Notes: a model not told the origin generated them from the sequence alone. Counted from the stretch's first letter, positions 21,737 through 61,000 are shown. The stretch: DNA of 64,000 nt from Parcubacteria group bacterium GW2011_GWA2_43_13 (GCA_000999025.1 LCFM01000001.1:1198-65197), one strand, 5' to 3'. A program made the numbers and translations.

Positions 21737-21764
21737 GTAGAGACGGGGTTAACCCCGTCTCTAC
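21737..21764. repeat. Family A palindromic repeat, canonical copy
   Basis: GTAGAGACGGGGTTAACCCCGTCTCTAC, a perfect 12-4-12 palindrome. Confidence 0.85.
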
Positions 21765-21773
21765 AATAGTGTG

Positions 21774-24700
21774 TTACTTCTTTTTCAACCAGCCGAAGAT
21801 ATCAGAAAAATTCTTCACAATAACATCTATAACATTTTCCGTATTAGTCGCGGCAAGCATGGTATAGGTATCTGACTCGCTTTTGTTTCCACTTTCATCA
21901 ATACTCACAACTTTATACTGATACACCGCTCCTGGCGCTTGTCGTGTCAAAACAACAACGTGATTCCGAGTATATTCCTTACTCTCTTGAGTTTTCATTT
22001 CCTCACCTTGTGTCGCTCCCAATCCTGCCCAAAATACAACCTGACTATTTGACGGCTCATCTGTGCGCCATGTCATCAAGGTCTGCACTTTTGCCTCCAC
22101 TCCCGGATACAATGTTGACTGGGCATCAACTTGGCTGATCTGCGGACCTTCTCGGTCTATCAAGGTTGTTGCATCGCCCAGCACCCGCTCAACCGCTTTT
22201 TCGCTCCGATCACGGCTGATAATCCGCAACGCGTACCGCGTGCCAGGAGCAAGGTTTGTAAGTTCAATGTTGTGATCTAAAGAAAAATCCGTTTTTCCCT
22301 GCGTTCCCCTGCGTGCTGTGTCTAATGCGCCAGTTCCATTATATGGTGTATATTCCACCTGCCCGTCCGCATCCACATTTGTACGCCACTGCAATGTAAT
22401 GCGACTTGCGGTTATATCAGTAACATTGGCAACCACTATTTCTAATGTATCTGACGGCGTGATAAATTCATAATCACGGCTTTTTGCCACTGCACCGACA
22501 GCGCCTTGTGAACGCAACTGGTAATGATATTTTGTCGCAGATCGCAAATCGGAAATTTTAACAGTATGCTCGCTCACATATTCACGGGAATTACCCACCT
22601 CAACCAGATACGGTTCTTTTGCAGTTGAAGAATACAAAGCATCAGGAACAAGACCGACTAAACTATTTGACGACTTATCTGTTTTCCAATAAAACGTAGC
22701 ACTGGTTGGCGTTAATTCAATAATAGGCAACCCTTCCACAATTTGCGGGCCTGGAATGTCCTGCGAAGCAGTGGCGATTAACTCCTGCAACACACCCGGA
22801 TCATTCCTTAATGATCCTGATGCCAATTGCCGCACTAATTGTTCAAAATTCCGTGTTACCTTTTTTACCGCATCTTCTCGCGTGCCGGCATTTTGCGGCA
22901 CTTCCACTGACAAAGATAATGTTTTAGTTAAAATTTCTTTTTGTTCTTCTTTTGGTTTATCTTGTATCTCATTTTTAATCTCTTTTATTTTATCGGCAGT
23001 AAGCGGTTCTTGTATCACCTCTTCTTTCGGCGGTATCGGATCTGTCGCCTTGAGAGCGCCGGTTGTAAAATTCTTCACCTCACTACTTCGCTTATTGCCT
23101 GCGCTGTCCGCCACTTCCGCTTTTACAAAATATTTCGTCGCGCTCTTTAATCCGCTCAACGAAAGAGTATGAGTTGTGTTCAATGAGTCCGATTCTTTTG
23201 TTTGCGATAAACTCGCGCTTGTTGTTCCGTATGAAAGAATAGCGCGCGATGATTCATCTGTGCGGACGTTAATGACAGCTGTTGTTGAAGACGTTTCTGT
23301 TATATCAAAAATGAGAATACTCGGCGCGAGGCGATCCGGCTCAACAGTGATCATTCCGCTGGAAGCACCCGTTGTTGCCGCAGTTCTGAACGTCAAACTA
23401 TTACTGCTATTTTCTGTGGCGCTGTTAGCGCTCGCGTCTTTGCTCCGCACTTGATAATAATAGGTGGTAAATGCGTTCAGCCCTGTCAATACAACAGTAT
23501 GCGTTTGCCCGGCGCTTACCATTGTCGGCACACCTTGACTTAAACCATATGTTAAATTCGTACTGTAATCAATCCAACTATCACTGGTCTCGTTTGTCTG
23601 AAACGTAAGAGTTACAGTCGTTCCGCTCACCGAAGGAGTTCCGATAGCGCTGATTGTAGGCGCTGTTTGATCATCGCTTCCTGCTGTTTCACCAGTATCA
23701 ACTCTCCCGTTTGCTGTTCCTGCTACTGTACTTGATCTTTGGCTGACATTTCCAGCGCTGTCAACAGTAACAACATAATATGTATATGCCGTGCTATCGC
23801 TCACACTCGTATCAGTATAATAATTCACCTCATTATCACCGGCTATCGTACTTGCTAACGCATACGATCCGCTTCCAACTTTTCGGTATACTTTATAACT
23901 CCCAAATCCAGGCGCAGGATCTGCAACGACCTGCCATGATACAAACAACCGATACACCGGCGTGGATAATTTTGTGTTTGATGTCTCAATTATTGCCAGA
24001 TTTGTTGGCGTTGTCGGCGTAATGCTTGAAACGGTTGTGATATTTCCTTTCGCATCTTTAATATGCAAATATAGAGTCGCAGGATCGGCGCTTAACGCAT
24101 AATCTGTTTTACTGGTTGCGTATGTTTCGTACTCGCCGGTCGGACTACTGGTACTTGCCGCGCGCATGGTGATGGAATTGTCATCTGATCCTGCAATAGT
24201 TACATCCGCCGTATTTGCTGTTTCTTTATTTGCATTCACCACCAAGCTCACGCTGATTGGGTCTTTGGTATCTAATGTAAATGACGATGCATTAGCGCTT
24301 CCAAAACGATTTCCTGCCTCACCGTCATCTGCCAAAACCTTTACAACCATGCTCCCGTACAATCCGTCAATATCGGTATTGGCTGTCCATGCAATAGTTT
24401 TGCCAGTGCCAGTTGCAATATTTACGCCAACACCTGTTCCGCTTGTGGTAACTGCTTTTACAAACAACGCAGTGCCAGGTGTATGCGCCGCGGCCGCAGA
24501 GCTGTTTACCCCACGCGTGATAGTGCCTTGTAAATTACTCCCTGTTTTGGACGTATATGTCATCATCTCATTATCTATCAAAATCGTTGCCGCGTCTGGT
24601 AAATTCGCAATACTTGATACAATAATCGCAGTTGTATCGCTGTTAGATAATTCTTCGTTTAATGTTACCCCTGCTGGTTGATAATACACTGTAATATCGG

Positions 24701-27700
24701 CATCGCTGTTATCGGCATCGGCAAAATCATACGCAATATTCACAGCGCCGTCACTGCCTTGAGTTGCGGTAATATTACTGATAACCGGCGCGGCATTCAC
24801 AGTATAGGTTACTGTTACATCACTGACAGTTGGTGTTGCGAATCCTGCGCTTGCTAAAAAAAGTTTATATTGAAAATACTGATCATTCGCTCCGATATTC
24901 AAAAGATGTCCTGCCGCCAATGAAGAATTGTTATTGGCTGTTTCAAAATAGTTACTCCCACTGCACGATCCGGCGGAATCCGCATATCCGCACCAATTGC
25001 TCCACGTATTACCATCTGATGAAGAACGAATTTGGAATTTTATGGTCTCGGTTCCGGATGTTCCTGTGGCCGTCCATGCAATTTTATTCATCACATTGCC
25101 TGATGACTGGGTGTTAAATGTATTAGAAGTGAGCGTGCCAGGTTGATAATTGTTATACGCAATCGTAATATCGCTTAAGGTAGAGGTATAGCCAGTATCT
25201 GCGGTTGCAAGAAATAATTTATACCTGATATACCGCTTGCCGTTTAATGCTGAATGAATAGCTGTTCCTGATGAGCTAAAATACGTTCCACTTGTTCCAT
25301 CGCTACCGACATAGTCGCCAGAGACCCAACCGCTGTCTGCGTCTTTTCCGGCGACTTGCACGCTGAACGCATTATCTCCTGTTTGCGAAGGAACGGTAGA
25401 TGTCCATGTGAGATTGCCAAAACTCGCAGGCAGTGTTGCCAAATCAATGGTCGCGGATTCAAAGTTGCCTGATGTGGTATATGCATTAGTAGATACCAAA
25501 TACCTAAACAGCGCATATGTATTATTAGCTGTAGTATAATATACTCCTATATGCGTACTTTCTGTAACAAAAACCATACCAGTCGTCGTATAATTTGACG
25601 AATCTCCACTTACAGACGTACCTCCTAATGCAGTCCACGCGTTATCAGCAATAGAATATTTTAAAAATTCGTATGACGAAACTCCAGGCGTAAGATAAAA
25701 TAGACCGTTAGTAGAATCATATGCAAACCCAGCACCCCCTTGTATTGTACCTGCGCTTGAGGGAGCCGATTTTGCGCTCCATACTCCTGTCCCAGCATTA
25801 TAGGTGTACAATGTTGGGCTTGATCCTCCAAACAACACATAAAAAACTCCGTCTGTAACATAATATCGAGCAAAATTCCCATAATTATTATTTGCGTTTT
25901 GAGGCGCGGCTGTCAGTGTTTCCCAAGAATTGCCAGATATACTGTAACGATAAAAAGTAGTTGCACCACCACCTGCAAGTACATAAATATAATTATCTCC
26001 CGGAACACGAAAAACAACAGATCCAGTGGTGATTGTGCCCGGCGCGTCAGTCAACGGAGCGATGGTATTGGTGGAGATAGTATATTTTTTAAATGTTGCT
26101 GTTGCTCCACCATAAACAATATAAATAGTATCTGATGTGCCGTCACGAGATAGTGAATATCCATTACTCACAGAGCCACCGATTGACGCGCTTGCTGTGC
26201 ATGTATTTGAGGTGATGGAATATTTATAAACAGTATTATTACCGTTTCCTAAAAAAAATATTTCATCATCAATGCTGTTGCGGATCATACCAACACCTCT
26301 AGCGCTATTATTTCCCATGCAAGTTGAAAGGGATGACCAAGTATCTGTACTTATTGTATATTTGACAAGGTTATTATTCCCTCCCCCCCTGTGTATAAAA
26401 ATCTTCCCATCTCCGTCAGCATATATCATCTGCGCACCAGATGCAAAATAATAAATGGGAGAAACAGACAGAGATGAACTATCAGAACTCTGCCAAGAAT
26501 TTCCCGAAATAGAATATCGAGCAAAATGAGGCTGAGATAATTGATACCCATAAATATAATCACCCAAAATCACAGGGTGCTTTGCATTGAAAGCGACAGT
26601 GCCTGGAACAGAGCTTGACCATGTTCCACCTGCAATTGAATATATTCTAATGATTGCTGAAAAAACAGCATAAAGATTCGTTCCTGCGTCATTTATGAAC
26701 AGATTTCCGTTGCCATTTACCGTCGCTGGCAATGAAGTAAGAGCGCTCCAATTATCATCTCCGGTTGCATATTTATAAAAACTACTAGATCCTCCTCCGA
26801 CTACAACATAAATATCAGTTCCCACCATCCGCATTGATCCTCCATCCCCTACAGATGCCGGCACAATGGCTAATGTACTCCAACTATTGCCTGAAATAGA
26901 ATACTTATAAAATCCGGTTGAGCTATTACCACTCATAACATAAATGCCATTTGAACCATCCCAAAGCATCCGTGCTCCGGTACTAACACCCGAAGGAACA
27001 GATGTAAGAGCACTACTCCAAGTCCCTGCACTTATCGAATATCTATAAAACAGTACACCCCCGCCTGCAGGCAAAAAATAAATATAACCATCTGCAAGTA
27101 ACAATCCTCCACCCGAATCACTTGAAGTGGTTGCTGTGGAATTTAATGTTACCCATTGATTCGTGCTGATAGAGTATTTATAAAAACCAGTACCCGCAGC
27201 ACCTCTTGTAACATATAGATCAGTCCCATTCAACACCATCCGAGGGTTCCCTATTGTTTCTGGAGCAGATGCCAATGTAGTCCACTGATTTGTGCTAATT
27301 GTATATTTATAAAAATTGGTTGTCGTTACTCCTGCTAATACATATAAGTCGTCTGTACCATAGGGAAGCATTGGTGCATTTATTGATCCAACAGGAAGTC
27401 TAGCGAAAGATGTGCTCCACGCGTTTACAGCAGATGTTCCGCCTTGCAAAGTAACGGTCCCGCTCGCTCCGGAACCGTTCACTTGGGTGGATGTGTTTGC
27501 GCCATTTCCAAATCCGCCACCTGTGGCGCTACTAGTGGTTGTTAATGTGCCGTCGTCAGTTGCGGTAAAAGATGATGTTGCAAGCGTGATATCGGCACCT
27601 GCGGTAACATTACTATCTTTGTCTAAATATTCTGTCCATCCGTTTTGGTTAGAGGCGTGCGTTGCCGGATTTTCCGTTTCAGTATTCCATGCGGTTTGAA

Positions 27701-27830: not shown

Positions 27831-27894
27831 AGGACCATCTTCAAAACAAACAAAAAAGTTATGCACAATTTATAATAGTATATCACATTTCATT

Positions 27895-27922
27895 GTAGAG
27901 ACGTATAGCAATACGTCTCTAC
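27895..27922. repeat. Family A repeat, variant loop
   Basis: GTAGAGACGTATAGCAATACGTCTCTAC. Confidence 0.75.
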
Positions 27923-30900
27923 GCATCGCTGAAATCACACATTTTTTTAAACGGACACCACTGGCAATGATAGCCAGGGGTTGCAGAAAACGCACTCTCC
28001 TCCATATGCTGAATCTGCTGTTTGATATTGAGCTGTAATTGCTCAAGGTCATCAGTGCCTCCTAAAAATGAGACCATTGAATCATCTTCAAGATAATGAT
28101 ATGTCAATCGCAACGGCACATACCCCAACACCTGTTGAACCGCAATCTGATACAATAACAATTGATGCTTGTCTTCTATGCTCATCTTGTCTCCTTTCGG
28201 CGTACCGGTTTTGTAATCAATGATTTCAACCCCTTCGTGCCCATCTATCACAATCGGATCAATGCGGTCAATACGACCCCACAGCGCGTATCGTTTCCCA
28301 TTATTCATCACTGGAAATTCAAACATTTTTTCAAGCGCAATTGGAACCGGCCATCCGCCTTTATATCGCTCTATCAGTGATGCAATAATCTCTTTCCCTT
28401 TTTTATCATACTCGTCTCGTTGTGTTTTTGATGTATACCAATCATCAATCCAACACTGATCATAGAATTTTAATAATTCCTTTTCTTCTAACACAATAGT
28501 GCTACCGGTTTCAGAAATGCTGTTGCCAAAAAGATCTGTCTGACCAATACGGGATGCGCGATCCTGAACCAAAAAAAACGCTTTTTGTAGCAATGAATGC
28601 ATAGTGGTGCCAAAAGAAAACATTGGCGTGCCTTCAACTACTGGAACTTTTAAAATATGTTCGTATTTATATTTCAGCGGGCAGGTTGCGAATGATTGTA
28701 ATTTTGTGTGGCTTAATGCATAAATATTTCGATATTTTGATATGTCGATATTTCGGGTGTCGGATTGCGGATTGTGGGGATCAATACCGCCCTCGGAGCG
28801 TAGAGACGGGGTTAACCCCGTCTCTACGGATGGGAGGGAGAGAATGTTTGCCACAATGTTTGCCTCAACAACAAACCGCGAGATTTTCTTTTTTCTTACT
28901 CCGCCGTAATCATCCGCGCTGGTAAAGTAAAGCGCATTTTTTGCCCGTGTCATGGCGACATAGCAAAGCCGCCGCTCTTCCTGCAGGTGTTCGTCTCCTG
29001 TTGGCAGTGTTTCGTGAATCAAGTCATCAGGGAGCGGGATACTATCCCCACGATTTGAAGTTGGAAACTTTTGTTCCACCATATTCACCACGCAGACAGT
29101 ATCAAACTCAAGCCCTTTCGCAGAATGCACAGTTAAAATATTGACCGCGTCTTCATCTCGTAATTCCAATTGTTCAAACCTGCCGTCATTGCCTGACCCG
29201 CGCTCAAGTTCAATTTCATCTGTAAAATGCTTAATGTGTGTATCGTCATGCGATTGCTCAAATTCGGCAACACGCTGATAAAACTGGCCCACGCACCATA
29301 AATCATCAATCGCTCTTTGCTGTTCTTGGGATGCGGGACTATTTGCTCTATCGCTTAATACCTTCATATACCCACTCTCTTGCATAAAATCATCAATAAT
29401 CTGGCCAGCAGAGTACTCGCGCGCAAGCGCAGTATGGCGGGAAATCAAATGAGTAAGTTTTTGAATACGCTCCCGCGCTTCGTCTGAAAGCGACGGAATA
29501 AGTTGCGCGTCTTTTAACGCCTCATAAAACGACACTGCTTTTCTTTTCATGTACTGTTGAATACAGGAAATATCCTCATACCGAATGGCATATACAGGAG
29601 TTGTCAGTAAACGGTAACACGACTGGGCATCATGGTAGTTATCCAAAAGATTAATATACGCAAAAATATCTAAAATAACCGGCGTACGATACAACCCCCG
29701 TTGCGCCCAAAATTGATATGGTATCTGTTCTGATCCGCACGCACGGCAGAATGGGTCAGCAGAATCATTTGCTCGCACAAGAAGCGCCATATCTTTCCAC
29801 GCAACGCCGGTATCATGCCTCTGTTTGAGAAGCGCCATAACAGATCCAATTTCATCATCAAGCTTTGCGCAATGAATATGTTTGATAATCCCTATTTCAT
29901 GCGACTGGGAAATGAGTTTTTTTGAAATTGGCATGTGCCGATTATCTACTCCCGTAGAGACGGGGTTAACCCCGTCTCTACGTGGCATAAGCGTCTCTAC
30001 ACTCTCATCCTCTTTATCCCGCCTTCCCGAACTCTTCAACTGCGCCTCTAATCGATCAGGATTATTATACTGAATAAGAGTGTATGCAGAATCCAATATA
30101 TTCTGCTTTGACCTATAATTTTGCGTAAGAACAATCTCCTCGCTTTCTGGAAAATCTTTTTTAAAACTTAAAATATTGCTCACTGACGCGCCGCGAAATT
30201 TATAAATTGCCTGATCATCATCTCCCACAACCATGATATTTTTTTCACGGCCTGCAGAGACGCCCCCCTGGGGCGTCTCATCTCGCGCGCCATTAGAGAC
30301 GCGCCCCTGGCGCGTCTCTACCCCTACAAGAAGTTTAGTGAGTTCATATTGTGCCCAGTTCGTATCCTGAAATTCATCAACTAATATGTAGTGGAACTTC
30401 TGTTGATAATACGCCCTCACGCGCGGACGCTGTTGCAACAACTGCACGGCATAGACAATAAGATCGCCAAAATCCATCACATTCTCTGTGAGCAATAATT
30501 GCTGATATGAGTGATAGATATGTGCTATTTCTTGAACGCGATCTGACTTGCTCTCATCTCCGGCTTCGGCACGATCTTTGTTTAATCTTATACTATCAGC
30601 ATATTCCAAATACCGTTCAGGTGTAATCAGCTCATCTTTTGCGCGGCTGAAATGTTTTAACAAATCACGCAAAAATTTTGTCGGATTGCCTTTGGGCTTA
30701 TAATATGAAAGTGGCAGATCATCAAGATGATTGCGTAACAACAGCCACTGATCTGTTTCATTTAACAACTTTGCGTCAGCTGGTAAACCGATCTCAATAC
30801 CAAACCTGCGTATAATTTTTTCGCAAAATGAATGAAAAGTTGAAATTTCTAAATCATAATATCCCTGCGTCAAAAGCCCGGCAACGCGATCTTCCATTTC

Positions 30901-34292: not shown

Positions 34293-34314
34293 GTAGAGAC
34301 GGGGTCGTCTCTAC
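34293..34314. repeat. Family A repeat, truncated-loop copy
   Basis: GTAGAGACGGGGTCGTCTCTAC. Confidence 0.7.
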
Positions 34315-37107: not shown

Positions 37108-37155
37108 ACTGGTTAGAATATCAAAAAAGAGAGCTCATGTACAGCTCAACGATGC

Positions 37156-37222
37156 GAAGACGCCCCATCGGGGCGTCTCTACAATATAGTGCAGTGGAGA
37201 CGGGGCGTTGCCCCGTCTCCAC
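37156..37222. repeat. Two family A variant units; the second supplies the rsmI C-terminus
   Basis: GAAGACGCCCCATCGGGGCGTCTCTAC and GTGGAGACGGGGCGTTGCCCCGTCTCCAC. Confidence 0.75.
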
Positions 37223-39020: not shown

Positions 39021-39048
39021 GTAGAAACGGGGTTAACCCCGTCTCTAC
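39021..39048. repeat. Family A repeat
   Basis: GTAGAAACGGGGTTAACCCCGTCTCTAC. Confidence 0.85.
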
Positions 39049-41743: not shown

Positions 41744-41847
41744 ATGCGTAGTGCCTAAAAATAACCTAAAACATTCTTACTATACCCAGTTAAGAACAAA
41801 AAAACAAGAGAGTCGCACTATACCGCGTACCCTCTTGTATATCGAGT

Positions 41848-42057
41848 TCACTGTGCATTGAACCCGAATAGAACATATCTGCCACATTGGTTGCATCGAA
41901 ACCCTACCACCTTCCCTTTTTTGATTTCCAATTGCAGGGTATTACTTTTCCCGCAATGCTGACACTCGTTTGTGCCCGATGAATAACTGCTATTGGCTCT
42001 TTTCCCTTCGCGAGGCGGAAACAACACCCCCCATAACCATGCTATTTGCTGTCTCAT
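41848..42057 (-). CDS. Small zinc-ribbon protein (CxxC...CxxC), hypothetical
   Basis: ECQHCGKS...CNQCGRY. Start uncertain (MRQQIAW..). Confidence 0.3.
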   Translation of the reverse strand: MRQQIAWLWGVLFPPREGKRANSSYSSGTNECQHCGKSNTLQLEIKKGKVVGFRCNQCGRYVLFGFNAQ

Positions 42058-42113
42058 AGCAACTCCTTCCTCTAAATCAACTGTACCACGACTGATAAAA
42101 AAGAAAAGCGTTC

Positions 42114-43211
42114 TCACTTAAAAAGCGAAAGATATGTCTCTATATTATTCAACGTTGCAAGGCGTAAAGCAAGTGGTTCTTGGGATATAAAAAGATGACG
42201 CAGATACGCTTTTGTATATGTCCGCAGTTCTTCTAATTGCGAATCAGAATGTATTGGAGAAAAATCGTTTTTATATTGTTCATTGGTAATGGAGGTGGGG
42301 GCGACAGAGGGAAGATACAACCTTCCATGCCGGGCCTCGCGAGTTGGGATCACGCAATCAAACATATCAATCCCCTTTTTATATGCTTCGATCACTTGTT
42401 CCGGCTTTCCCACACCCATTAAATACCGCGGTTTATCTTCCGGCAAAATCGGAATCACCCAATCAAGAACTTTACGCGCTTCTTCCCACGGCTCGCCAAC
42501 CGATACCCCGCCAATCGCATACCCGTCAAACGGCATATCAACCAATGTTCGCGCGCATTGTTCACGCAAATCCTGATACATCCCACCCTGAACAATGGCA
42601 AACAGTAAATAATCGCCTTTATTTTTTTGTTTATACTTTAACGAACGCTCGGCCCATCGCAGAGTGCGTTCCATATCCTGCCCTGCTTTTTCATGTGTAC
42701 ATGGATATTCAGAACATACATCCAACACCATGCGGATATCAGAACCGATTGTGTCTTGAATTTCCAAAACTCGCTCCGGAGTAAAAAAATGCTTTGCTCC
42801 TGAAATATGATCGCGAAATTCCACACCGTTGTTAGTTATACGAACAAGAGATTTCTCTATCTGGAGAGACGGAGTTAACCCCGTCTCTCCATGACTGCTA
42901 TGACGCTTTATCCTGCCTAACGAAAATACCTGATAGCCACCGCTATCAGTTAAAATCGGCTTATCCCATTTCATAAAGCCATGCAACCCGCCTGCCTCTT
43001 TTAAACACTCTTCCCCGGGGCGCAAGTACATATGATAGGTATTGGAAAGAATAATGGTTGCTCCTAATTGCTCAAGGTCGCGCGTTGTCAGTGACTTTAC
43101 CGCCCCTTTTGTTGCAATAGGCATGAAGAAGGGGGTTCGCAATTCTCCATGTGGTGTTATGATTGCCAACTTTCTTATCATATCTATCAATGCATCGAAA
43201 TAAAAAAGCAA
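42114..43211 (-). CDS. tgt: Queuine tRNA-ribosyltransferase
   Basis: TPHGELRTPFFMP, LTDSGGYQVFSL and a Cys/His zinc site are all TGT-like. Carries an in-frame family A insert (..HGETGLTPSLQ..). Confidence 0.85.
   Translation of the reverse strand: MLFYFDALIDMIRKLAIITPHGELRTPFFMPIATKGAVKSLTTRDLEQLGATIILSNTYHMYLRPGEECLKEAGGLHGFMKWDKPILTDSGGYQVFSLGRIKRHSSHGETGLTPSLQIEKSLVRITNNGVEFRDHISGAKHFFTPERVLEIQDTIGSDIRMVLDVCSEYPCTHEKAGQDMERTLRWAERSLKYKQKNKGDYLLFAIVQGGMYQDLREQCARTLVDMPFDGYAIGGVSVGEPWEEARKVLDWVIPILPEDKPRYLMGVGKPEQVIEAYKKGIDMFDCVIPTREARHGRLYLPSVAPTSITNEQYKNDFSPIHSDSQLEELRTYTKAYLRHLFISQEPLALRLATLNNIETYLSLFK
42863..42890. repeat. Family A repeat inside tgt
   Basis: GGAGAGACGGAGTTAACCCCGTCTCTCC. 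Confidence 0.8.
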
Positions 43212-49749: not shown

Positions 49750-49860
49750 GTAAGACCTCCCCTCTCCTTGGTAAGGAGGGGAGACGCGTCGGTTCCCTCT
49801 CTTTTAAGAAGGAGAGGGTTAGGGTGAGGTATCCCCTCCTTTTTAAGGAGGGGGGAGAAG
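49750..49860. repeat. Cluster of about 3 family B hairpin units upstream of smpB
   Basis: CTCTCCTTGGTAAGGAGGGGAG .. CTCTCTTTTAAGAAGGAGAGGG .. CCCCTCCTTTTTAAGGAGGGGGG. Confidence 0.7.
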
Positions 49861-50372: not shown

Positions 50373-50373
50373 A

Positions 50374-51019: not shown

Positions 51020-51023
51020 ATAC

Positions 51024-51953: not shown

Positions 51954-52690
51954 AGCATTCTATCTATTGGCACGGGGACCTGGCACTCCGCTTCGCTTCG
52001 GCCTGGGCATGGCACTTCTCCCTTCTTCAGGTGCTCACACTATAATAACCTACTTGTGGCTTGCCGCGGTCTTGGCCCCGTCACTTCGTTCGCTCATGCT
52101 CACTTCGGACAGGGCACGACACTCGCATATATTATTCAAACTTCAACGCTCTATCAAATGCTTCTGGCTTGCCACGACCGAGCCATCGAAAATGGCGAGT
52201 GTCGTGGAGATGGCGGGAATTTCACCCGCGTCTAAACAGTGTTTCATTTTTGGTGTGCCATCAGAGAGCATCTTTAAAATTTTGCGGAAAATGGTTAAAG
52301 ATGTTCAAAAAAACATTTCCGCTATCACCGATCAAGGGGTCAAAAGCGCCACGATGACAAGCACTTTCCAATCACCATGGTTGGCGCCAGTGATTCGCTA
52401 TGGTGACTCGCGAAGCTGACGGCATGTCACTGTTTAGGCGACAGCTGGTGCGAATGAAAAACCAGCAAAAGCTGATTTCACGCGCGCGACAAGATTCTTG
52501 GCATTTGTCGGCTTGGTTAAGAGATTAACGAGCGATCAACCACGCTCGAATGGCCAAAATATGAAACAATCTGCTTATCGAATAATACCATCCCCATGTT
52601 TGTGGGCTATTCGTAAAGATTCGTGATGTATTCGTGGCGAAGTATAATAAAAAACAACCCTGCCGTCAAGCCCATCGAGCAAAAAATAGG

Positions 52691-54406: not shown

Positions 54407-54420
54407 AAAATGTATTCTAA

Positions 54421-54452: not shown

Positions 54453-54463
54453 TATTTACCTGT

Positions 54464-54493
54464 ATTATAGCATAGAATTGAAATTTTAGACAA
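54464..54493 (-). promoter_or_regulatory. Sigma70-type promoter for the small-protein/NTase operon
   Basis: Minus strand: TTGTCT, 18 nt, TGcTATAAT (extended -10), about 55 nt upstream of the ATG at 54406. Confidence 0.55.
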
Positions 54494-54539
54494 TAACGTA
54501 TTATCAAAAATAGGGCTTATTTTAGCTAATCTCTGGTTG

Positions 54540-54568
54540 TTGACAATAATTACAAGATATGGTACTAT
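54540..54568 (+). promoter_or_regulatory. Sigma70-type promoter firing rightward toward the GC-rich island
   Basis: TTGACA, 17 nt, TGgTACTAT (extended -10). Confidence 0.55.
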
Positions 54569-54762
54569 GGCATGTTTTCTGAAAACTGAAGTTGAGAGTT
54601 GATCAAACGTGCGGTGTAAGGCCTTGTGTCGTACATCGCGCGCTCTGATGAGCTCTTAATACATGTAAGAATAGTACAAATCACGAAAAAACTGATACAT
54701 CCAAGATATTAAGCGATTGTGAGTTGCGTGACTTGTACTTATTTTCATTCAATTGGTGGGCG

Positions 54763-54852
54763 ACCTCACCCTAACCCTCTCCTTATAAAGGAGAGGGAAA
54801 CGAATCCCCCCTTAAGAGGGGAACGACGCGCCTCCTTCCTTGAGGAAGGTGG
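54763..54852. repeat. Cluster of about 3 family B hairpin units in the long leader of the GC-rich island
   Basis: CCCTCTCCTTATAAAGGAGAGGG .. CCCCCCTTAAGAGGGG .. CCTCCTTCCTTGAGGAAGGTGG. Confidence 0.7.
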
Positions 54853-55140
54853 CACCCGCAGGGTGACGGAAGGTGTTACCACTAATTGACTTGCCCAGTC
54901 CTCGTGACTGGGGCTCACTTCATATCTGATAATACACAACCGATATTCGTATCATTTGCATGAATTTGTATATTTGCGTCGCATTTGTCAGATAAAAAGT
55001 GGGACTTTCGTGAGCGTGGGTATGTTGCCTGCGCTTAATGCGTCGTTCATCGACAACGAGTTGAGGTTACGTTGTCCCCTACCTCAACTACACTTCACAA
55101 CGCATCACGCAAGTGATGCGCTCTCGTAAGGAGCTTCAAA

Positions 55141-56262
55141 ATGCGTCAAAAACTGAGTTTTCAACTCTACCTCATCAAGACCGGTGACGAGAGGAAAGAC
55201 AAAGGAAACGGAACTGCGGAAGCGTTGCTCGTCGAAATCACGGACCTTGACCAAACGGGTCCGTATGAGTTGTACTGCGAGAATGGGATCATGGCCGAAG
55301 GCGACCGCGCAGCGATCCAGAAATTTCTCGAGGCGGAGGTTGCCAAGCAACCGACGGCCGAAGAAGAGCTTCTTGCCGAGACGCAAGACGAGCTCGCCAC
55401 AAGGACGAGCGAGCTACGTGCTGTCCAGGGGACGGCACGGCAGATCGCCGGCGAGCGCGACGTGGCGGTTGCCCAGCGGGATGAATCCCGCCTCGGGCAC
55501 GATCTGATCGTGAACAAGCTCGCCGAAGTCGCGAAAGCGAATGGCGAGCTCCAGGAGACGTTCGAGCAAACGTACGAGAAGCTCACCGACGCTCAGGCCG
55601 ACGTGTTGTCGGCGAAAAGCGAGCTCAGGACCGCGAACGATGCCTTGGCTTGGATGCGTGCGCGGATGACAAACTTTCTTGGCATGATCGGCCTCACGGC
55701 CAATCTCATCAACGACTCCAACGCAGATCATAACGTAACAGCAAGGATCTACGAAATCAAACAACATACGGCCTGGTACTGCGGTGTCACTGGTCTCGTC
55801 GTCGGCGGGATCATCGTCGGCGCCATCTGGCTCTTCACGACGGCGTTCGACGGCTGTGCGGGGAAACCCAACAACCAGCCGCCGACACTGTCGGTTACGC
55901 CGACAGCGACGACGGTCGAGATCGGGAAGGTCGCGACGGTGTCCTACGATGTCACCGACCCTGACGACAAGAAGCATGACGTCGAGGTTGTGACCAGTCC
56001 CAAAATCGGGAAGGTCACAGTCGACCAGGAATCGAAGACTCTGACGTACACCTCCGATGGCATCAGCCTCGGGGATGATACGTTCCAGGTCGTCGCAAAA
56101 GACAAAGAGTCCACCTCACCCGCTATTGACGTCAACGTTACCGTCAACGCCGCTCCGGCGCCCACCCCACCCGCCACGACTGGCGGCGGTGGGACGACAC
56201 CGCTGGCCGACGACTGGGATAAGGTAACGATCCCCGACGTGTCGGGGATCAAAGGACGCTAA
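55141..56262 (+). CDS. High-GC island gene 1: coiled-coil / single-TM / cadherin-like (bacterial Ig-like) domain protein
   Basis: AAGGAG 8 nt upstream of ATG. N-terminal coiled coil, TM (GLVVGGIIVGAIWLF), then VTDPDDKKHDVEV..TYTSDGISLGDDTFQVVAKDKESTSPAIDVNVTVN (cadherin/VCBS-like). About 60% GC against ~40% background. Confidence 0.7.
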   Translation: MRQKLSFQLYLIKTGDERKDKGNGTAEALLVEITDLDQTGPYELYCENGIMAEGDRAAIQKFLEAEVAKQPTAEEELLAETQDELATRTSELRAVQGTARQIAGERDVAVAQRDESRLGHDLIVNKLAEVAKANGELQETFEQTYEKLTDAQADVLSAKSELRTANDALAWMRARMTNFLGMIGLTANLINDSNADHNVTARIYEIKQHTAWYCGVTGLVVGGIIVGAIWLFTTAFDGCAGKPNNQPPTLSVTPTATTVEIGKVATVSYDVTDPDDKKHDVEVVTSPKIGKVTVDQESKTLTYTSDGISLGDDTFQVVAKDKESTSPAIDVNVTVNAAPAPTPPATTGGGGTTPLADDWDKVTIPDVSGIKGR

Positions 56263-56328
56263 CAACCAAGGCAATGGCGTGGGGGAGGAGAAATACAACC
56301 CCACGCACTCTCTTAAGGAGTTCGACGA

Positions 56329-57315
56329 ATGAAACGAATTTTCGTTCCGCTCTTCGTGTTTGGAATCGTGAGTGCCTCCTATGGTCAAGTGGACCCGGAG
56401 GCACGGTCGCGCACGGTGGTGTTGAAACAAGAGCTCGCAAAGCAAGGTGGCGCTCTGAACAACCTCGATACGCGGCTCACCGCCGTCGAGGGAAAACCGG
56501 CGCCGAAGACGCCAAGTTCAGGGCACGACGTTACAGCGCGACAAATGGCGTTGTGGCTCGCAGAACGAGCGTTTGTGCGGGATGGCTATACACCCGAAGC
56601 CGCACAGGCCGAAGCCGCCCGTGTGATCACGGGGGGACTCGGGAAAAACGCTCGTCTCCGCGAGTTGCGCGCGTATGCCACGGCATACGCACTCCGCGAC
56701 CCATCGAAACTCATCGGCGACGTGGAGCGCAACGTAAACACAAAAATCGTCGGGTTGAAAACCGACGTCGACGCGCTTGCCGGACGCGTCGGAAAGAACG
56801 AAACGACCCTGACGGAACAGGGCACCAGCCTCGGCGTCGTCGAGACAGACTTGAAAGCCCTGAAATACGGGCTCAAGGCCACGATCAACGATGCGATCAC
56901 GGCGAAGTGCGTCGGCTATTACACGAAAGCCGACGCCGACGCCGCGGTCACGAAGGCCATCTTCGAAGCAGTTACAAAGCTACAGACAGATGGTCTCATG
57001 ACCAGTGCCAAGGAGGTTCGTGAGTTCGTCGGCGACGCTCTCGCGCCATACGCGAAGGGCGCCGAGCTCGCGGTAGTGCTCAAGCAAACCCTCGCGCTCA
57101 CGAGCGAACTGATCGGATTCGTCCCCCACGTCAAGGTAGACGTAAGGGGATCCGACGATCACTACCGCGACGCGCGAATCGGCGAGCTGACCGCCATCGA
57201 AAACGCCCTCAAGGCGGCGATGGCACCGGACAAGCCGGCGGAGGCGACGACGCCTTCCGCCGCGGACGATCACGAACACGAAGCCAACCTCGAATTCGAC
57301 TTCATCACCCAGTAG
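56329..57315 (+). CDS. High-GC island gene 2: secreted coiled-coil protein
   Basis: AAGGAG RBS; signal peptide MKRIFVPLFVFGIVSASYG; long alpha-helical/coiled-coil body. Confidence 0.65.
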   Translation: MKRIFVPLFVFGIVSASYGQVDPEARSRTVVLKQELAKQGGALNNLDTRLTAVEGKPAPKTPSSGHDVTARQMALWLAERAFVRDGYTPEAAQAEAARVITGGLGKNARLRELRAYATAYALRDPSKLIGDVERNVNTKIVGLKTDVDALAGRVGKNETTLTEQGTSLGVVETDLKALKYGLKATINDAITAKCVGYYTKADADAAVTKAIFEAVTKLQTDGLMTSAKEVREFVGDALAPYAKGAELAVVLKQTLALTSELIGFVPHVKVDVRGSDDHYRDARIGELTAIENALKAAMAPDKPAEATTPSAADDHEHEANLEFDFITQ

Positions 57316-57336
57316 AGACCTGGGTGTATGCTACAC

Positions 57337-57397
57337 ATCGGATTGGAATGGAATCATACACAACGCTGTATTGAGACCACCAATCCGATTTTTTTAT
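57337..57397 (+). terminator. Terminator-like hairpin after island gene 2
   Basis: ATCGGATTGG...CCAATCCGAT followed by TTTTTTT. Confidence 0.5.
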
Positions 57398-57410
57398 TTA
57401 CGAAAAACAT

Positions 57411-57440
57411 CCCCCTACCCTCTCCTTGGCAAGGAGAGAA
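57411..57440. repeat. Family B hairpin unit at the right edge of the GC island
   Basis: CCCCCTACCCTCTCCTTGGCAAGGAGAGAA. Confidence 0.65.
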
Positions 57441-57460
57441 AAATTCTAAAATGTCTCTCC

Positions 57461-57721
57461 TTATTTCCTATAAACATCTTTGCGATGACCAATAGTGACA
57501 AACAATGCAACGCCACTCTCTATAAAAACAAAAATTACTCGATACTCTCGAGTAATACGAAAAGAAAAGGCCATGTGCTAATCTACTAATTTTTTAACAT
57601 GCAACCGCGAATCACGCCAATCGGCACAAAAAATATCTTCTTGTTTGTGGTACAATCCCTGAATATGCGCAGGAAGTTTATGAAATCTCTTACGAAATTC
57701 ATCGGCATACAGAACTTTCAT
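57461..57721 (-). pseudogene. RelE/ParE-family toxin gene interrupted by one in-frame amber codon
   Basis: MKVLYADEFRKRFHKLPAHIQGLYHKQEDIFCADWRDSRLHVKKLVD, then TAG, then HMAFSFRITREYRVIFVFIESGVALFVTIGHRKDVYRK. The halves match the N- and C-terminal parts of RelE/ParE; ATGA overlap with the antitoxin gene. Confidence 0.6.
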
Positions 57722-57948
57722 AACCTCGAAGATACTTTACCATTGTGCCAATCTTGTATACCTCGCTTAAACGATGACTTTAACGCCTGTGGTTGATCGT
57801 AATTGGCAAAAGCATCTTTAGGAAATTCTGAAGCGATCCCTTCTAACACGCGCACACTAAAATCATGCAAAGAAAGACCATATGATAAAGCTAACCCCTG
57901 CAATCGCCGAGCAGATTTAGGAGGTAATTTTATTGTTACTGTTTCCAT
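57718..57948 (-). CDS. Ribbon-helix-helix (CopG/ParD-like) antitoxin
   Basis: METVTIKLPPKSARRLQGLALSYGLSLHDFSVRVLEGI: beta strand plus two helices; upstream of and translationally coupled to the toxin remnant. Confidence 0.6.
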   Translation of the reverse strand: METVTIKLPPKSARRLQGLALSYGLSLHDFSVRVLEGIASEFPKDAFANYDQPQALKSSFKRGIQDWHNGKVSSRL

Positions 57949-58016
57949 ACATCTTTTACTATACTACACAAATACTCCCTATGACAATAGTCGCAAGCAT
58001 TACACAAAAGACGCTC

Positions 58017-58043
58017 CACCGGAGCGTCTCTACAATATCATCA
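58017..58043. repeat. Family A variant just downstream of the giant gene
   Basis: AAAGACGCTCCACCGGAGCGTCTCTAC. Confidence 0.65.
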
Positions 58044-58045
58044 TG

Positions 58046-61000
58046 TTACGCGGCTTTGGAAAGATGTTTTGCAAGTTCTTGTTCAACAGTATCGAACACT
58101 AATTTGCTTTTTGGATCCAGATGCTCCACTATACCGGCAAGAACGCGCCAGCTATGCCATGACTGCTGATTTAATATATTCTTATTAAGCATATCTTGGG
58201 CAGAAAGCCCTAAAATATTTCTCACCCCGATTGCCGCATTTTTCCGCAATTTCGTGTCATCAGACAGTAAATTATTTATTAAACTTTGCGCGTTACCTTT
58301 ATATTTTCCCAACGCATCAACTGAATCGATTGACGTATTCATATACTCAACCAACTCGGACTGTTTCACCGCTCCAACAACCTCTTGAAATGAGGCATCA
58401 TCATGAATAATAGTATGAGCAGAATCAAGCCACTCCGGGGTAATAATTTTTTTAGCATCGTAGGTGAAAAGTTCTGCAATGGCTTTACCGTCATCATCGG
58501 AGACGGGGCGACGCCCCGTCTCTACAACACCAGCAATGGCACTGCTGGTTTCGTGATGCGCATTTGGGATGACATCAACAGTGCCGATGTCTTTATCAGT
58601 TCCTTTGATAGGATGATCTTTGAGCCATTCGGTATAATCGTGCAGTTCGTGACCACGCGCGCCGTTGGGCAGAACGTGACGGATTGAAATAATTTTTTCA
58701 TTGCCCTTGGGGAGTTGCTCTAATACTACATCAGGTGTTTGCGGGTTGCTTGCGCCAAATTTGACGGCAATAATCTCTGGTGGTTGAGACCCCACCCCAC
58801 CCTCCCCTTGTAAAGGGGAGGGAGACGACAATTCACCATGTGAAAAACGGGCGATGTCGTGCGGATCAGTAACAGGTCGCACCCATGCGTGATGATCATG
58901 CATTGTAATATGGTTCCATGGTCCGCCTTCATCTTTAGAAAGATGCTCAAGTGTTTTTGAAATAGTTCCAACATCAGCATCTTGATGAATTGCATGGAAT
59001 GAAGTTAAAATATTTGCTTCTTCTGCGCCGATACTTCCTGATACCGGACCTGGGATATCGCCAGTTGCGCCAATGCTTTCGCGCAGGGCTTCTAATGCTT
59101 CAGACCTCACCCCGCCCTCTCCTTGGAAAGGAGAGGTGGACGATAACTCCCCTTCACCCTCTCTGACCTCAAGAAGGAGGACATGCGCGTCGGTGTTGGG
59201 TAATTGCAATTCATGGGTATGGCCATCAACAATCATGCCTTGCGGAGAAGGGACCGCAAGCGGTTCAAACCTCACCCTCCCCTCTCCTTTTAAAGGGGAG
59301 GGTAACGACGACGACACACCCTCTGTCCTCCTCTCAAGAGGGGGGATCGTCGCCCCCCTTCCTTGAGGAAGGGTTGGGGAAGGTGTTGCGTCATGCGATT
59401 TCGAAAAATCATATTCATGGGAAATATCAGACGGACGCTCAAACACAGCGCCTGCAGTATGGGTTTCAAACGGAGCATACGCGCCACGCGTTGGGTCATA
59501 TGTATATTCACCAACCGCCCATGTTCCTTGCGGTGTTTTATGCAACCAATACGCAGGATTCTCGCCAGCTCCGGCAACGCCGGTATCCAGTACACGCACC
59601 TCATGACCTGCATTATCAACATACCCATAATCGCGCGCAATCAAATGCGCCAGATTGCCACGATCTCCTGTTCCATAACGCTGTGAAAAATATGAAAACG
59701 CATCATGGTTTTGCCCGAGTTGACGATGTAACACATGCTCAACACCCTCCCCCCTGCCAACCACAGCGCTCATTGGAAGATGCCCTGCATCAGGCAAAGG
59801 AACAGGGCCATGAGGCGTGGCTCCACCACCATCTGCCGCATGCGCGACTTCGCGCAAATGAGCAACCTCACCCAACAAAAACGCTCCTATAATCGCTCCG
59901 CCAACTTTATACACTAACCTACGATTTCTATTTCTAATATCTAACACATTATTACCTTGAGCATCATACATTCCGCTTCGCGTCCGTTCTGCTTGCCGAA
60001 ACTCGGTATATTCAGCGTGAAGTGATCCGCCTGTCTGTTGAATAGTTTCAAATTTTTGAGGAATGCTTTTTTCACCTGTTCTCAATCCATCCGGCCTCAC
60101 GCGCGGAGGTTGGGCATTCGTGCTCCACAATGGTCGCTCCCATTCTACCAAAAGTTTTAAATGCATTACTTTAGTATACATTTTTTTAAACCGTTCATAT
60201 TGATGGCTAAATTCATGATGATTTTTTAAATTTTCAATATATGGCTGGGTTTCTGCAAGTACTTTCAGCATTGGCTGCAATTGGGCATCAATATTCGCAA
60301 CGTCGGAAATGGTTAATTCGTTCTCTATTTTTTGCAATGTCTTTTCGTATTCCCCCAACTTACCCGATTCAAGCGCTTTGAGCGATTGCTCAACACCTGT
60401 CTCTGGCGCATTCCTGCCTGTGCGCAATGCAAACCCCCACCTGCCATGAGGCCCGCCCCATGGCCGACCAATACCACCTGAATCAGCTAATGCTCCTCCC
60501 ATTTTCCATCCGCTGTACGCGCCTACTGCCGCCGCCCCCGCTACCCCAAAAGTGCGCAAAAACGATAATCCCAACCCAACGCCTAATGCTGTAGCGCCTG
60601 CAAACGCTTTATCACGTGGCGAAGTGTTATGCCATAAAATTCCGCGGTTGCGATCTTGCTTTGTAAATCCAAGCGGCCGAGTAGTGCGCATGCCATCCGC
60701 AACTGTGCCAAAAAATTCATGATACCCATGTTGCGCGCCCTGACTGCGCTGATCCATTGCCTCTTGATACCGTGTTTTTGCCTCATCATCCATTGAATAA
60801 TACAATGCAAATCGCATGGCGCGGGATTGAATATCTTCTGCAGATAATCGTTGCGCCTCTTCTAATGCGTTATTTTCAGCAGTCAGCGCGCCTAAAAACC
60901 GATTATAATATTCATCAACTCCTAACGGGTCTTGAATCCCCTGCTCTGCTCTGATACGATTGCGGTTTGTGTTTTCAACATAATTGGCAATAGAAAATGA

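What the first reader, a model, noticed from the sequence alone, without database searches (positions are those of the whole stretch)
21737..58526. Family A: a dispersed GTAGAGACGGGG-TTAA-CCCCGTCTCTAC palindrome with at least 13 copies, several inserted in frame inside essential genes
The window carries at least 13 copies of a 28-bp perfect palindrome (12-bp arms GTAGAGACGGGG around a TTAA centre), or variants with the GAGACG/CGTCTC arms conserved and a variable loop. Locations: 10845, 21737, 27895, 28800, 29954, 30254, 34293, 37156, 39021, 40333, 42863, 58017, 58500. About half sit immediately 3' of genes like REP elements. The rest lie inside ORFs without breaking the frame: three in the UvrD-like helicase-nuclease, one in tgt, one in the 1981-aa giant protein, and one supplying the last codons of rsmI. 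In-frame copies translate to recurring peptides: VETGLTPSL in one strand and frame, RDGVNPVSTGVD on the other strand. This matches Rickettsia palindromic elements, which insert into genes in frame and add a peptide loop. Nothing comparable has, to my knowledge, been characterised for this GAGACG hairpin. No transposase or RAYT gene is visible in this window, so the mobilising activity must lie elsewhere or be lost.
Basis: partly seen in the sequence, partly recalled or inferred. Interest (0 to 1): 0.8.

Follow-up and report, generated by a model that had tools for sequence, protein, structure and literature searches.

The report
Double-foot REP hairpins in a CPR genome
The repeated 28-base palindrome is real, but it belongs to an already catalogued class of small bacterial repeats (REP elements copied by a RAYT transposase), seen here at high density and inside genes in a tiny-genome Candidatus Jacksonbacteria bacterium.

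Summary
The window holds 17 hairpin units plus one half-unit built on GTAGAGACG...CGTCTCTAC. The 9-mer occurs 20 times against 0.4 expected. Nine units lie at or within 30 nt of a stop codon, and four of them supply the TAG. Eight lie in frame inside genes.

The element is not uncharacterised. It is a GTAG-tagged "double-foot" REP, the type Quentin et al. 2018 assign to TnpA_REP subclass 2.4 (RAYT group 4). Their supplement lists GTAGAGACGCACGGCCGTGCGTCTCTAC. Intragenic REPs in UvrD-type genes and TAG donation were reported by Di Nocera et al. 2013.

In loci from other genomes, including a Moraniibacteriota (CPR) genome, the same palindrome flanks RAYT genes and also sits in frame inside them.

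No RAYT lies in this window. Whether the source genome has one could not be tested.

Verdict: a new member, in a new host lineage, of a known kind. Mobilisation by a RAYT on single-stranded DNA is inferred, not shown.

The parts
10844..10883 (-). Long-stem REP variant (17-bp arms, GTAG foot on the - strand), 26 nt downstream of the nusG-like gene
   Evidence: DNA fold -21.5 kcal/mol, z -9.0
21301..21329 (.). Double-foot REP variant GTAAAGACGCATTGTTAATGCGTCTTTAC, 10 nt downstream of ORF 21339-21722
21737..21764 (.). Canonical 28-nt double-foot REP (TTAA centre), 9 nt downstream of the 2030-aa gene
27895..27922 (.). Double-foot REP with TAT/ATA inner stem; its GTAG on the - strand gives the TAG stop of the helicase-nuclease
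28800..28827 (.). Canonical REP in frame in the helicase-nuclease (site 3, peptide VETGLTPSL), in the variable linker before the nuclease domain
29954..29981 (.). Canonical REP in frame in the helicase-nuclease (site 2, peptide RDGVNPVST)
29992..30000 (.). Isolated right half (CGTCTCTAC), 10 nt from the previous unit, inside the helicase gene
30254..30282 (+). REP unit with 3-nt loop and GCAG foot; half of the dimer inserted between helicase motifs II and III (site 1)
30293..30321 (-). REP unit with 3-nt loop and GTAG foot on the - strand; second half of the site-1 dimer (peptide VGVETRQGRVSNGARDETPQGGVS)
34293..34314 (.). Truncated double-foot REP GTAGAGACGGGGTCGTCTCTAC; gives the TAG stop of TatD
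37154..37182 (-). Single-foot REP (loop GAT, GTAG on the - strand); gives the TAG stop of RsmI
37194..37222 (.). GTGG-footed double-foot REP encoding part of the 14-17-aa RsmI C-terminal extension (SGDGATPRLH)
39021..39048 (.). Canonical REP with 1 mismatch; gives the TAG stop of the M16 peptidase. A related GTAAAGACG hairpin sits at the same spot in sister locus L125
40333..40360 (.). Canonical REP, 30 nt downstream of the class II aminoacyl-tRNA synthetase gene
42863..42890 (.). Degenerate REP (GGAG/CTCC feet) at the centre of a 20-aa in-frame insert in tgt (HSSHGETGLTPSLQIEKSLV)
58005..58033 (-). Single-foot REP (AAAAGACGCTCC ACC GGAGCGTCTCTAC), 12 nt downstream of the giant gene; followed by TTTTG on the - strand
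58497..58525 (-). Single-foot REP in frame in the giant protein (peptide VETGRRPVS)

Best explanation
Family A is a family of repetitive extragenic palindromes (REPs) of the GTAG-tagged superfamily. More precisely, it is the 28-nt 'double-foot' type (5' GTAG ... CTAC 3') and its single-foot 29-nt relatives, which are the cognate repeats of TnpA_REP subclass 2.4 (RAYT group 4) tyrosine HUH transposases.

Proposed mechanism:
1. On transiently single-stranded DNA each unit folds into a 9-14 bp hairpin.
2. A RAYT binds the hairpin, uses the GTAG foot as a guide, cuts next to it through a covalent tyrosine intermediate, and joins the piece elsewhere. The repeat therefore spreads without encoding anything.
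3. Selection then filters the copies. The palindrome reads the same on both strands and is open in two of three frames (VETGLTPSL and RDGVNPVS). The third frame begins with TAG.
4. Survivors are therefore copies just behind stop codons, copies that replace a stop codon, and in-frame copies in tolerant surface loops.

What is shown and what is inferred:
- Shown here: the anatomy, the excess over chance, stem covariation, lineage-specific insertion, and the RAYT association in other genomes.
- Taken from published biochemistry on RAYT groups 2 and 3: binding, GTAG guidance and cleavage at CT/CA.
- Inferred: that a subclass 2.4 enzyme does the same, and that it acts or acted in this genome.
For: Anatomy:
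- Conserved GTAG or GTGG foot plus hairpin. Six inner stems covary.
- Single-stranded DNA folds of -11 to -16 kcal/mol for single units, z -4.9 to -8.9.
- Flanks beyond +/-1 nt are random, so the unit is about 28-30 nt with no terminal inverted repeats or target duplication.

REPtron architecture elsewhere:
- Seven complete and one end-truncated RAYT-like ORFs occur in seven loci drawn by the palindrome: L019 (Moraniibacteriota); L028, L038 and L044 (Bacteroidales/Paludibacter); L066 (two copies; Bacteroidetes MAG); and L089 and L111, whose source titles lay beyond the 80 rows listed.
- Two that were scanned match NCBIfam NF047646 (REP-associated tyrosine transposase) at E about 1e-17, below the curated cut-off.
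- L019, L028, L038 and one of the two L066 copies are flanked on both sides by the same palindrome. L089 and L111 have one upstream. The other L066 copy has only a variant downstream. Six of the seven complete ORFs carry one in frame just after the HUH motif.
- Their motifs NH[IVM]H, WQ and YIxxNP and their 164-186 aa length (as scanned) fit subclass 2.4.

Published match:
- Quentin et al. 2018 describe double-foot REPs and in-frame REP insertion in tnpA_REP for subclass 2.4. They list GTAGAGACGCACGGCCGTGCGTCTCTAC.
- Of the 120 best RAYT relatives, 13 carry a VETxxxxSL-type and 14 an RDxxxxVS-type peptide (up to 27 proteins); CPR (Moranbacteria) RAYTs in the list show the same kind of peptide.

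Dimers: inverted dimers with the GTAG feet outside occur in related contigs, and two-unit clusters occur in the window.

Insertion:
- The tgt insert is absent from every solved TGT structure and from most Patescibacteria.
- Helicase site 1 is present only in this species and its 81% sister.
- RsmI has a C-terminal extension.

Background: TAG donation and intragenic REPs in repair helicases match Di Nocera et al. 2013. RAYT biochemistry is in PMC8266576.
Against: - No RAYT is encoded in the 64-kb window. I could not reach the rest of the genome, so a resident enzyme is unproven.
- The few contigs of the same population that were compared base by base (L118-L123, over window 29045-50319) show no presence/absence polymorphism at any REP, so there is no sign of current movement.
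- No biochemistry exists for subclass 2.4 enzymes. REP transposition has not been reconstituted in vivo for any group.
- The in-frame inserts are 60 and 72 nt, longer than one or two 28-29 nt units. Sister species carry different palindromes in the same loops. Simple one-step insertion of a unit does not explain this.
- The RAYT loci were found by searching for the palindrome, so the frequency of the association is biased upward.
Confidence: 0.85

Rival explanations
1. The hairpins are primarily host RNA elements, such as mRNA 3'-end stabilisers or transcription terminators. They would be kept at gene ends by selection rather than spread by a transposase.
For: Nine of 17 units lie at or within 30 nt of a stop codon on the coding strand. 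The M16 stop-codon hairpin is kept at the same position in a sister species with a different inner stem. Units 58005 and 39021 are followed by short T runs. REPs are known to be co-opted in this way in E. coli (own knowledge; Di Nocera's discussion).
Against: Most units lack a T tract. Eight units lie inside coding sequence, where termination would be harmful. The same sequence occurs across at least five phyla and flanks RAYT genes. Many units are perfect palindromes including the 4-nt centre (TTAA, CATG, CGCG), which an RNA hairpin does not need. This can be a secondary use but not the origin.
Confidence: 0.3
2. The elements are a Rickettsia-palindromic-element-like family, unrelated to REP/RAYT, that specifically targets coding sequence.
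For: In-frame insertion adds peptide loops to essential proteins, as reported for RPEs.
Against: The unit is 28-29 nt with a GTAG foot. It is extragenic in half the cases, flanks RAYT genes elsewhere, and is listed among subclass 2.4 REPs. RPE-4 and RPE-6 are filed as CGTC-tagged REPs without a transposase. RPE-1 is much longer (own knowledge).
Confidence: 0.03
3. The units are orphan relics. A RAYT once active in the lineage has been lost, and the copies persist by drift, by selection for secondary roles, and by hairpin-templated correction that keeps them palindromic.
For: No RAYT is in the window. No polymorphism was seen between the compared contigs of the population. Several units are degenerate or truncated (34293, 42863, 29992). 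REP-bearing genomes without tnpA_REP are reported (section 30).
Against: Four copies are identical over 28 nt and the TTAA subtype is specific to this lineage and its relatives. That argues for fairly recent amplification. Only 64 kb was examined; the total genome size is not known from these tools.
Confidence: 0.25

Closest known systems
Double-foot REPs of TnpA_REP subclass 2.4 / RAYT group 4 (Quentin et al. 2018, PMC6006769)
   Same: 28 nt, 12-bp stem and 4-nt loop, with 5' GT[AG]G and 3' C[TC]AC. The GTAGAGACG foot is identical to the Chloroflexus aggregans entry. [quoted passage not shown]
   Different: The host is a Candidatus Jacksonbacteria (CPR/Patescibacteria) genome, a group absent from that survey ('Parcubacteria' has 0 occurrences in the text). 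The inner stem and centre (GGGG-TTAA-CCCC) are lineage-specific. Density is about one unit per 3.8 kb. No transposase was seen in the 64 kb examined.
GTAG-tagged REPs, including intragenic REPs (Di Nocera et al. 2013, PMC3733652)
   Same: GTAG tag, 6-13 bp stems, and location just 3' of ORFs. The TAG of the tag is used as a stop codon. Inverted dimers occur, and in-frame copies sit in UvrD/Rep-type helicases and tRNA-modifying or aminoacylation genes.
   Different: In their definition the GTAG is unpaired at one end. Here most units pair GTAG with CTAC. The GTAGAGACG sequence is not in their text or held supplements.
REPINs and REP/BIME of gamma-proteobacteria (RAYT groups 2 and 3)
   Same: Short hairpins with a GTAG foot, non-autonomous, and tied to a single-copy domesticated Y1 transposase. 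Inverted pairs are the likely mobile unit. There is biochemical evidence for hairpin binding, GTAG guidance and CT cleavage.
   Different: A different RAYT subclass. Most units here are singlets that are themselves perfect palindromes. They are found across distant phyla rather than in one vertically inherited lineage.
Rickettsia palindromic elements (RPE)
   Same: Palindromic repeats that survive inside essential genes as in-frame peptide loops.
   Different: Different sequence, tag and length. No RAYT association has been reported for them. This is similarity of outcome, not of family.

Membership tests
GTAG-tagged REP superfamily | Short (20-40 bp) unit that folds into a stable stem-loop | tested here: met
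   Units of 28-29 nt (one of 40 nt). Single-stranded DNA folds of -11 to -21.5 kcal/mol; no shuffle folds as well.
GTAG-tagged REP superfamily | Conserved GT[AG]G tetranucleotide at the foot of the hairpin | tested here: met
   GTAG in most units. GTGG at 37194, GTAA at 21301, GCAG at 30254, GGAG at 42863.
GTAG-tagged REP superfamily | High copy number, dispersed through the genome | tested here: inconclusive
   17 units in 64 kb against about 0 expected. The genome-wide count could not be made.
GTAG-tagged REP superfamily | Mostly just downstream of ORFs; the tag can supply a TAG stop | tested here: met
   Nine units lie at or within 30 nt of stops. Four supply the TAG.
GTAG-tagged REP superfamily | Units often paired in inverted orientation (BIME/REPIN-like) | tested here: inconclusive
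   Two two-unit clusters in the window (30254/30293 and 37154/37194). Their relative orientation is ambiguous because the stems are self-complementary. Clear outward-GTAG inverted dimers occur in related contigs L134, L140, L144 and L149.
Double-foot REP of TnpA_REP subclass 2.4 (RAYT group 4) | [quoted passage not shown] | tested here: met
   10 of the 17 units carry a four-base foot and its reverse complement at the two ends: seven are GTAG...CTAC, and 21301 (GTAA), 37194 (GTGG) and 42863 (GGAG) use variant feet. A published entry has the same foot.
Double-foot REP of TnpA_REP subclass 2.4 (RAYT group 4) | Flanks a tnpA_REP gene with NH[IFV]H, WQ and YIxNNP motifs, about 194 aa | tested here: met
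   Met in other genomes only: L019, L028, L038, L066, L089 and L111. Not seen in this window.
Double-foot REP of TnpA_REP subclass 2.4 (RAYT group 4) | [quoted passage not shown] | tested here: met
   Six of seven complete RAYT ORFs. Among the 120 best relatives, 13 carry a VETxxxxSL-type and 14 an RDxxxxVS-type peptide.
Double-foot REP of TnpA_REP subclass 2.4 (RAYT group 4) | A cognate RAYT in the same genome | not testable with these tools
The window covers 64 kb of a 100-kb contig and the rest could not be fetched. No Jacksonbacteria RAYT was among the listed hits.
Double-foot REP of TnpA_REP subclass 2.4 (RAYT group 4) | Binding and cleavage of the folded single strand by the transposase | not testable with these tools
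   Biochemistry exists only for groups 2 and 3.
Rickettsia palindromic elements | Family consensus sequences and length (RPE-1 about 100-150 bp; RPE-4/6 are CGTC-tagged) | tested here: not met
   The unit is 28-29 nt with a GTAG foot. RPE-4 and RPE-6 are classed as CGTC REPs. The RPE-1 length is from my own knowledge.
MITE | Terminal inverted repeats of an IS plus target-site duplication | tested here: not met
   Flanks are random beyond +/-1 nt in 150 + 26 copies. No duplication is seen.
Intrinsic terminator | GC-rich hairpin immediately followed by a T/U tract | tested here: not met
   Only 58005 and 39021 have a short T run. Eight units are inside ORFs.

The most novel reading that the evidence does not exclude
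This small Jacksonbacteria genome carries a dense, recently amplified REP population but no RAYT of its own. The units, whose 9-nt foot is identical in Bacteroidota, Ignavibacteriota, Acidobacteriota, Chloroflexota and on viral contigs, would have been acquired from, or be mobilised in trans by, an enzyme from other organisms or phages. REP subtypes would then mark DNA traffic between CPR cells and their partners.
Probability: 0.08. Interest if true: 0.6.

Novelty: new member of a known kind. Interest (0 to 1): 0.3.

Why it matters
It extends a known class of selfish or domesticated repeat to the Candidate Phyla Radiation. I found no paper reporting REPs there: the one paper that holds both terms is on another topic.

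These genomes are small and tightly packed, yet one unit per roughly 4 kb is tolerated. The units rewrite stop codons and add loops to tgt, a UvrD-like helicase-nuclease and RsmI.

For annotation, these hairpins explain odd lineage-specific peptide segments (VETGxxPSL, RDGxxPVST) and C-terminal extensions in CPR proteins.

For REP biology, the conserved 9-nt foot across phyla gives a defined substrate for the untested subclass 2.4 enzymes.

It does not open a new kind of system.

Tried and rejected
- Rfam (gathering thresholds) over the window: only a tmRNA, nothing at the hairpins. No tRNA genes.
- Full-text search for GTAGAGACG: 196 papers; none of the 20 listed concerns bacterial repeats.
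- Population variants: the contigs of the same population that were compared (L118-L123, covering window 29045-50319) differ by a few SNPs, N runs and two small indels. None is at a REP, so there is no evidence of recent movement.
- Metagenome scan for the TTAA-type unit next to an HUH-motif coding pattern, aimed at this lineage's RAYT: no hit.
- Plain TTAA 28-mer scan: 24 contigs. None overlaps the window and none encodes a RAYT.
- Chimeric RAYT query carrying both window peptides, to pull out a Jacksonbacteria RAYT: more than 5000 relatives, none named Jacksonbacteria, and none of the peptide matches tallied among the 120 listed was VETGLTPSL or RDGVNPVS.
- Extending beyond the window: only 1.2 kb exists to the left. 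The right-hand 35 kb could not be reached because the giant gene runs off the window and its exact product is not on record.
- Viral contigs: 116 stretches carry the family, but no RAYT is present.
- Considered and rejected: CRISPR array (no regular spacing), MITE, canonical terminators, assembly artefact.
- The AlphaFold model of tgt is only weak support. The alignment was shallow and the low-confidence stretch 81-110 also covers conserved residues.

Full report
OBSERVATION

The exact 28-mer GTAGAGACGGGGTTAACCCCGTCTCTAC occurs four times in the window (21737, 28800, 29954, 40333). Near copies lie at 39021 and 42863. No shuffle gave any match. The looser GAGACG-N4-20-CGTCTC hairpin occurs 11 times against 0.04 expected. 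The 9-mer foot GTAGAGACG and its complement occur 20 times against about 0.4 expected.

Reading every site gives 17 units and one half unit. All 13 coordinates in the finding are valid. Two of them (30254 and 37156) are halves of two-unit clusters. '58017' is a complete hairpin at 58005-58033, and there is an extra unit at 21301.

The constant part is the foot GTAG-AGACG and its complement. The inner four pairs and the centre vary. Thirteen matches were selected only on AGACG-N10-11-CGTCT. Eleven of them have four further Watson-Crick pairs, using six different inner stems.

As single-stranded DNA the single units fold at -11 to -16 kcal/mol. No shuffle does as well.

Part of the window (29045-50319) is 100% identical in independent assemblies, and the tgt protein alone is on 18 contigs, so the repeats are not assembly artefacts.

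HOST AND CONTEXT

The window is 100% identical over 29045-50319 to MHJS01000023.1 of GCA_001818105.1. Sources name its proteins Candidatus Jacksonbacteria or Parcubacteria group bacterium GW2011_GWA2_43_13, a CPR/Patescibacteria lineage. Almost all genes are on the minus strand and GC content is about 43%.

The units fall into three position classes:
- Four units supply the TAG stop codon from their GTAG foot. The genes are the helicase-nuclease, TatD, RsmI and the M16 peptidase.
- Five units lie 9-30 nt behind a stop codon.
- Eight units lie in frame inside genes. Four are in the helicase-nuclease at three sites. One each is in tgt, the RsmI C-terminus and the giant protein.

The palindrome reads identically on both strands. 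Two frames are open (VETGLTPSL and RDGVNPVS) and the third starts with TAG (read directly from the sequence). This alone accounts for which copies can survive in a gene-dense genome.

ARE THE INTRAGENIC COPIES INSERTIONS?

tgt. Every solved TGT aligns in two blocks that leave out query residues 104-123. No residue is missing on the reference side, so this is a clean 20-aa insert. Among 15 Patescibacteria orthologues, most have nothing at this position. The 84%, 79% and 65% relatives carry different inserts in the same loop. In the 84% relative the insert contains another perfect palindrome, CCCCTCTTGCGCGCAAGAGGGG.

Helicase-nuclease. Site 1 lies between helicase motifs II (DEFQDT) and III (GDDDQ). 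It is a 24-aa insert made by the 30254/30293 pair. A shortened version is present in the 81% sister. It is absent from the next relative and from nine others. Sites 2 and 3 are variable linkers, and sister species carry other repeat-encoded peptides there.

RsmI. The protein ends 14-17 residues later than in two syntenic relatives. The extension is read from the 37194 unit and stopped by the 37154 unit.

Structure. An AlphaFold model of tgt places the insert in a low-confidence coil. The alignment was shallow, so this is weak support.

It is not met.

WHAT THE ELEMENT IS

The hits came from Bacteroidales, Ignavibacteriales, Acidobacteriaceae, Gammaproteobacteria, Ktedonobacteraceae/Chloroflexia, Moraniibacteriota and Buchananbacteria. 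Their centres are mostly CATG or CGCG rather than TTAA.

A search of all ORFs in those loci, first with an E. coli RAYT sequence recalled from memory and then with a profile built from the first hits, found seven complete and one truncated protein in seven loci. Two that were scanned match NCBIfam NF047646, REP-associated tyrosine transposase, at E about 1e-17. That is below the curated cut-off. The Pfam Y1_Tnp matches of four of the five scanned are weak.

These genes sit in the classic REPtron arrangement:
- In L019 (Moraniibacteriota), L028, L038 and one L066 copy, the palindrome lies a few to a few hundred nt upstream and again at or just after the stop codon.
- L089 and L111 have one upstream. 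The other L066 copy has only a variant downstream.
- In six of the seven complete ORFs, another copy lies in frame just after the HUH motif, read as VETGHAPSL, VETGRAPSL or RDGACPVST.

The literature describes exactly this. Quentin et al. 2018 define TnpA_REP subclass 2.4 (Bertels' RAYT group 4):
- Its motifs are NH[IFV]H, WQ and YIxNNP, with a mean length of 194 aa.
- Its REPs include 'double foot' forms with 5' GT[AG]G and 3' C[TC]AC.

Their supplementary table lists GTAGAGACGCACGGCCGTGCGTCTCTAC for Chloroflexus aggregans ACL24330.1, and GTAGAGACA variants for two other strain codes in the table.

Di Nocera et al. 2013 had already reported the following for GTAG REPs:
- They sit just 3' of ORFs.
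- They often supply the TAG stop.
- They occur in frame inside genes, notably UvrD/Rep helicases, Uvr proteins, RecBCD, tRNA synthetases and tRNA-modifying enzymes.

A protein search with a CPR RAYT returned more than 5000 relatives, some named RayT. They include Moranbacteria and Parcubacteria proteins. Among the 120 best, 13 carry a VETxxxxSL-type and 14 an RDxxxxVS-type peptide.

Further family traits are also present:
- Related CPR-like metagenome contigs with the TTAA subtype also carry single-foot 29-nt units with 3-nt loops. These are arranged as inverted dimers with the GTAG feet outside, like REPINs.
- Flanks of 176 copies are random beyond a Y at -1 and an R at +1. The unit is therefore about 28-30 nt, with no terminal repeats and no target duplication.

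HOW IT MOST LIKELY WORKS

For RAYT groups 2 and 3, published experiments show four things. The enzyme binds the folded REP on single-stranded DNA. It needs the GTAG foot. It cleaves at a CT (or CA) dinucleotide through a tyrosine-DNA intermediate. It can transfer the strand, and the GTAG helps choose the cut site.

I infer that subclass 2.4 enzymes treat the GTAGAGACG foot in the same way, and that new copies are laid down in single-stranded DNA at replication forks.

The perfect palindromy, including the 4-nt centre, is not needed for an RNA hairpin. It fits either central deletion of an inverted dimer, as Quentin et al. suggest, or hairpin-templated correction (my inference).

A secondary role as mRNA 3'-end hairpins is plausible for the copies behind stop codons. 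It is untested, and most copies lack a T tract.

WHAT REMAINS OPEN

- No RAYT is encoded in the window. The rest of the genome could not be fetched. The enzyme may lie elsewhere or may have been lost.
- No REP presence/absence polymorphism was seen among the near-identical population contigs that were compared.
- The in-frame inserts are 60 and 72 nt, longer than the units. The same loops hold different palindromes in sister species. This points to tolerated hot spots or to in-place turnover, and I cannot tell which.

COMPARISON, NOVELTY AND SCORE

The element meets the tested defining features of GTAG-tagged REPs and of the double-foot REPs of subclass 2.4. It does not meet those of RPEs, MITEs or intrinsic terminators.

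It is a new member of a known kind. The new points are the CPR host, the TTAA subtype, and the density of gene-altering copies in a tightly packed genome. I found no paper reporting REPs in the Candidate Phyla Radiation.

It is wrong that the hairpin is uncharacterised. Interest is 0.3.

Noticed in passing
window 49833-49853, 54775-54797, 57420-57438, 58800-58822, 59116-59136, 59356-59373; also L124 7781-7803, L125 1332-1354: A second palindrome family, CCCTCTCCTT-N3-AAGGAGAGGG and variants. Three copies lie in frame in the giant protein, where the peptides SPLKGEG, SPFQGEGG and SPLQGEGG occur. Similar peptides fill the helicase variable loops of sister species (PLKGEG, LLMKEG).
   Followed up: partly
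L124 6644-6665 (tgt of the 84%-identical sister species): A different perfect palindrome, CCCCTCTTGCGCGCAAGAGGGG, occupies the same tgt loop that holds the GTAGAGACG-type unit in the window. The same protein loops are hit, or overwritten, by different repeat families in sister lineages.
   Followed up: partly
window 52202-52595 (- strand): A tmRNA gene (Rfam RF00023, 66 bits). ARAGORN did not report it.
   Followed up: no
window 41744-42113 (between tgt and the class II aminoacyl-tRNA synthetase gene); L124 7413-7840; L126 10807-11168: A 360-430 nt 'intergenic' stretch conserved in syntenic relatives. Some assemblies call an 89-aa ORF here. It is followed by a hairpin plus T-run terminator. 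It looks like a small unannotated gene.
   Followed up: no
L152-L267 (IMG/VR viral contigs): GTAGAGACG-N10-CGTCTCTAC occurs in 116 stretches of viral contigs, with many inner-stem subtypes (CGATTAATCG, CAAAATCTTG and others). None of these loci encodes a RAYT. By my rough estimate chance would give very few; the size of the collection in bases is not known to me.
   Followed up: partly
L121 1-119 versus window 43065-43183: One metagenome contig of the same population ends with a 119-nt piece in inverted orientation relative to the rest. The break lies inside tgt, about 150 nt from the REP. It is probably a fold-back assembly artefact.
   Followed up: no
L125 10060-10245 (downstream of the AI-2E transporter gene): A 180-nt element bounded by TAGAGACA...TGTCTCT feet, with long internal complementarity. 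It may be a REP-footed larger hairpin or a dimer with a spacer.
   Followed up: no
window 37154, 58005, 58497, 10844, 30293 versus 30254: Five of six single-foot units have their GTAG foot on the minus strand. That is the coding, G-rich strand, presumably the lagging-strand template. This would fit single-strand transposition, but the numbers are too small to test.
   Followed up: no
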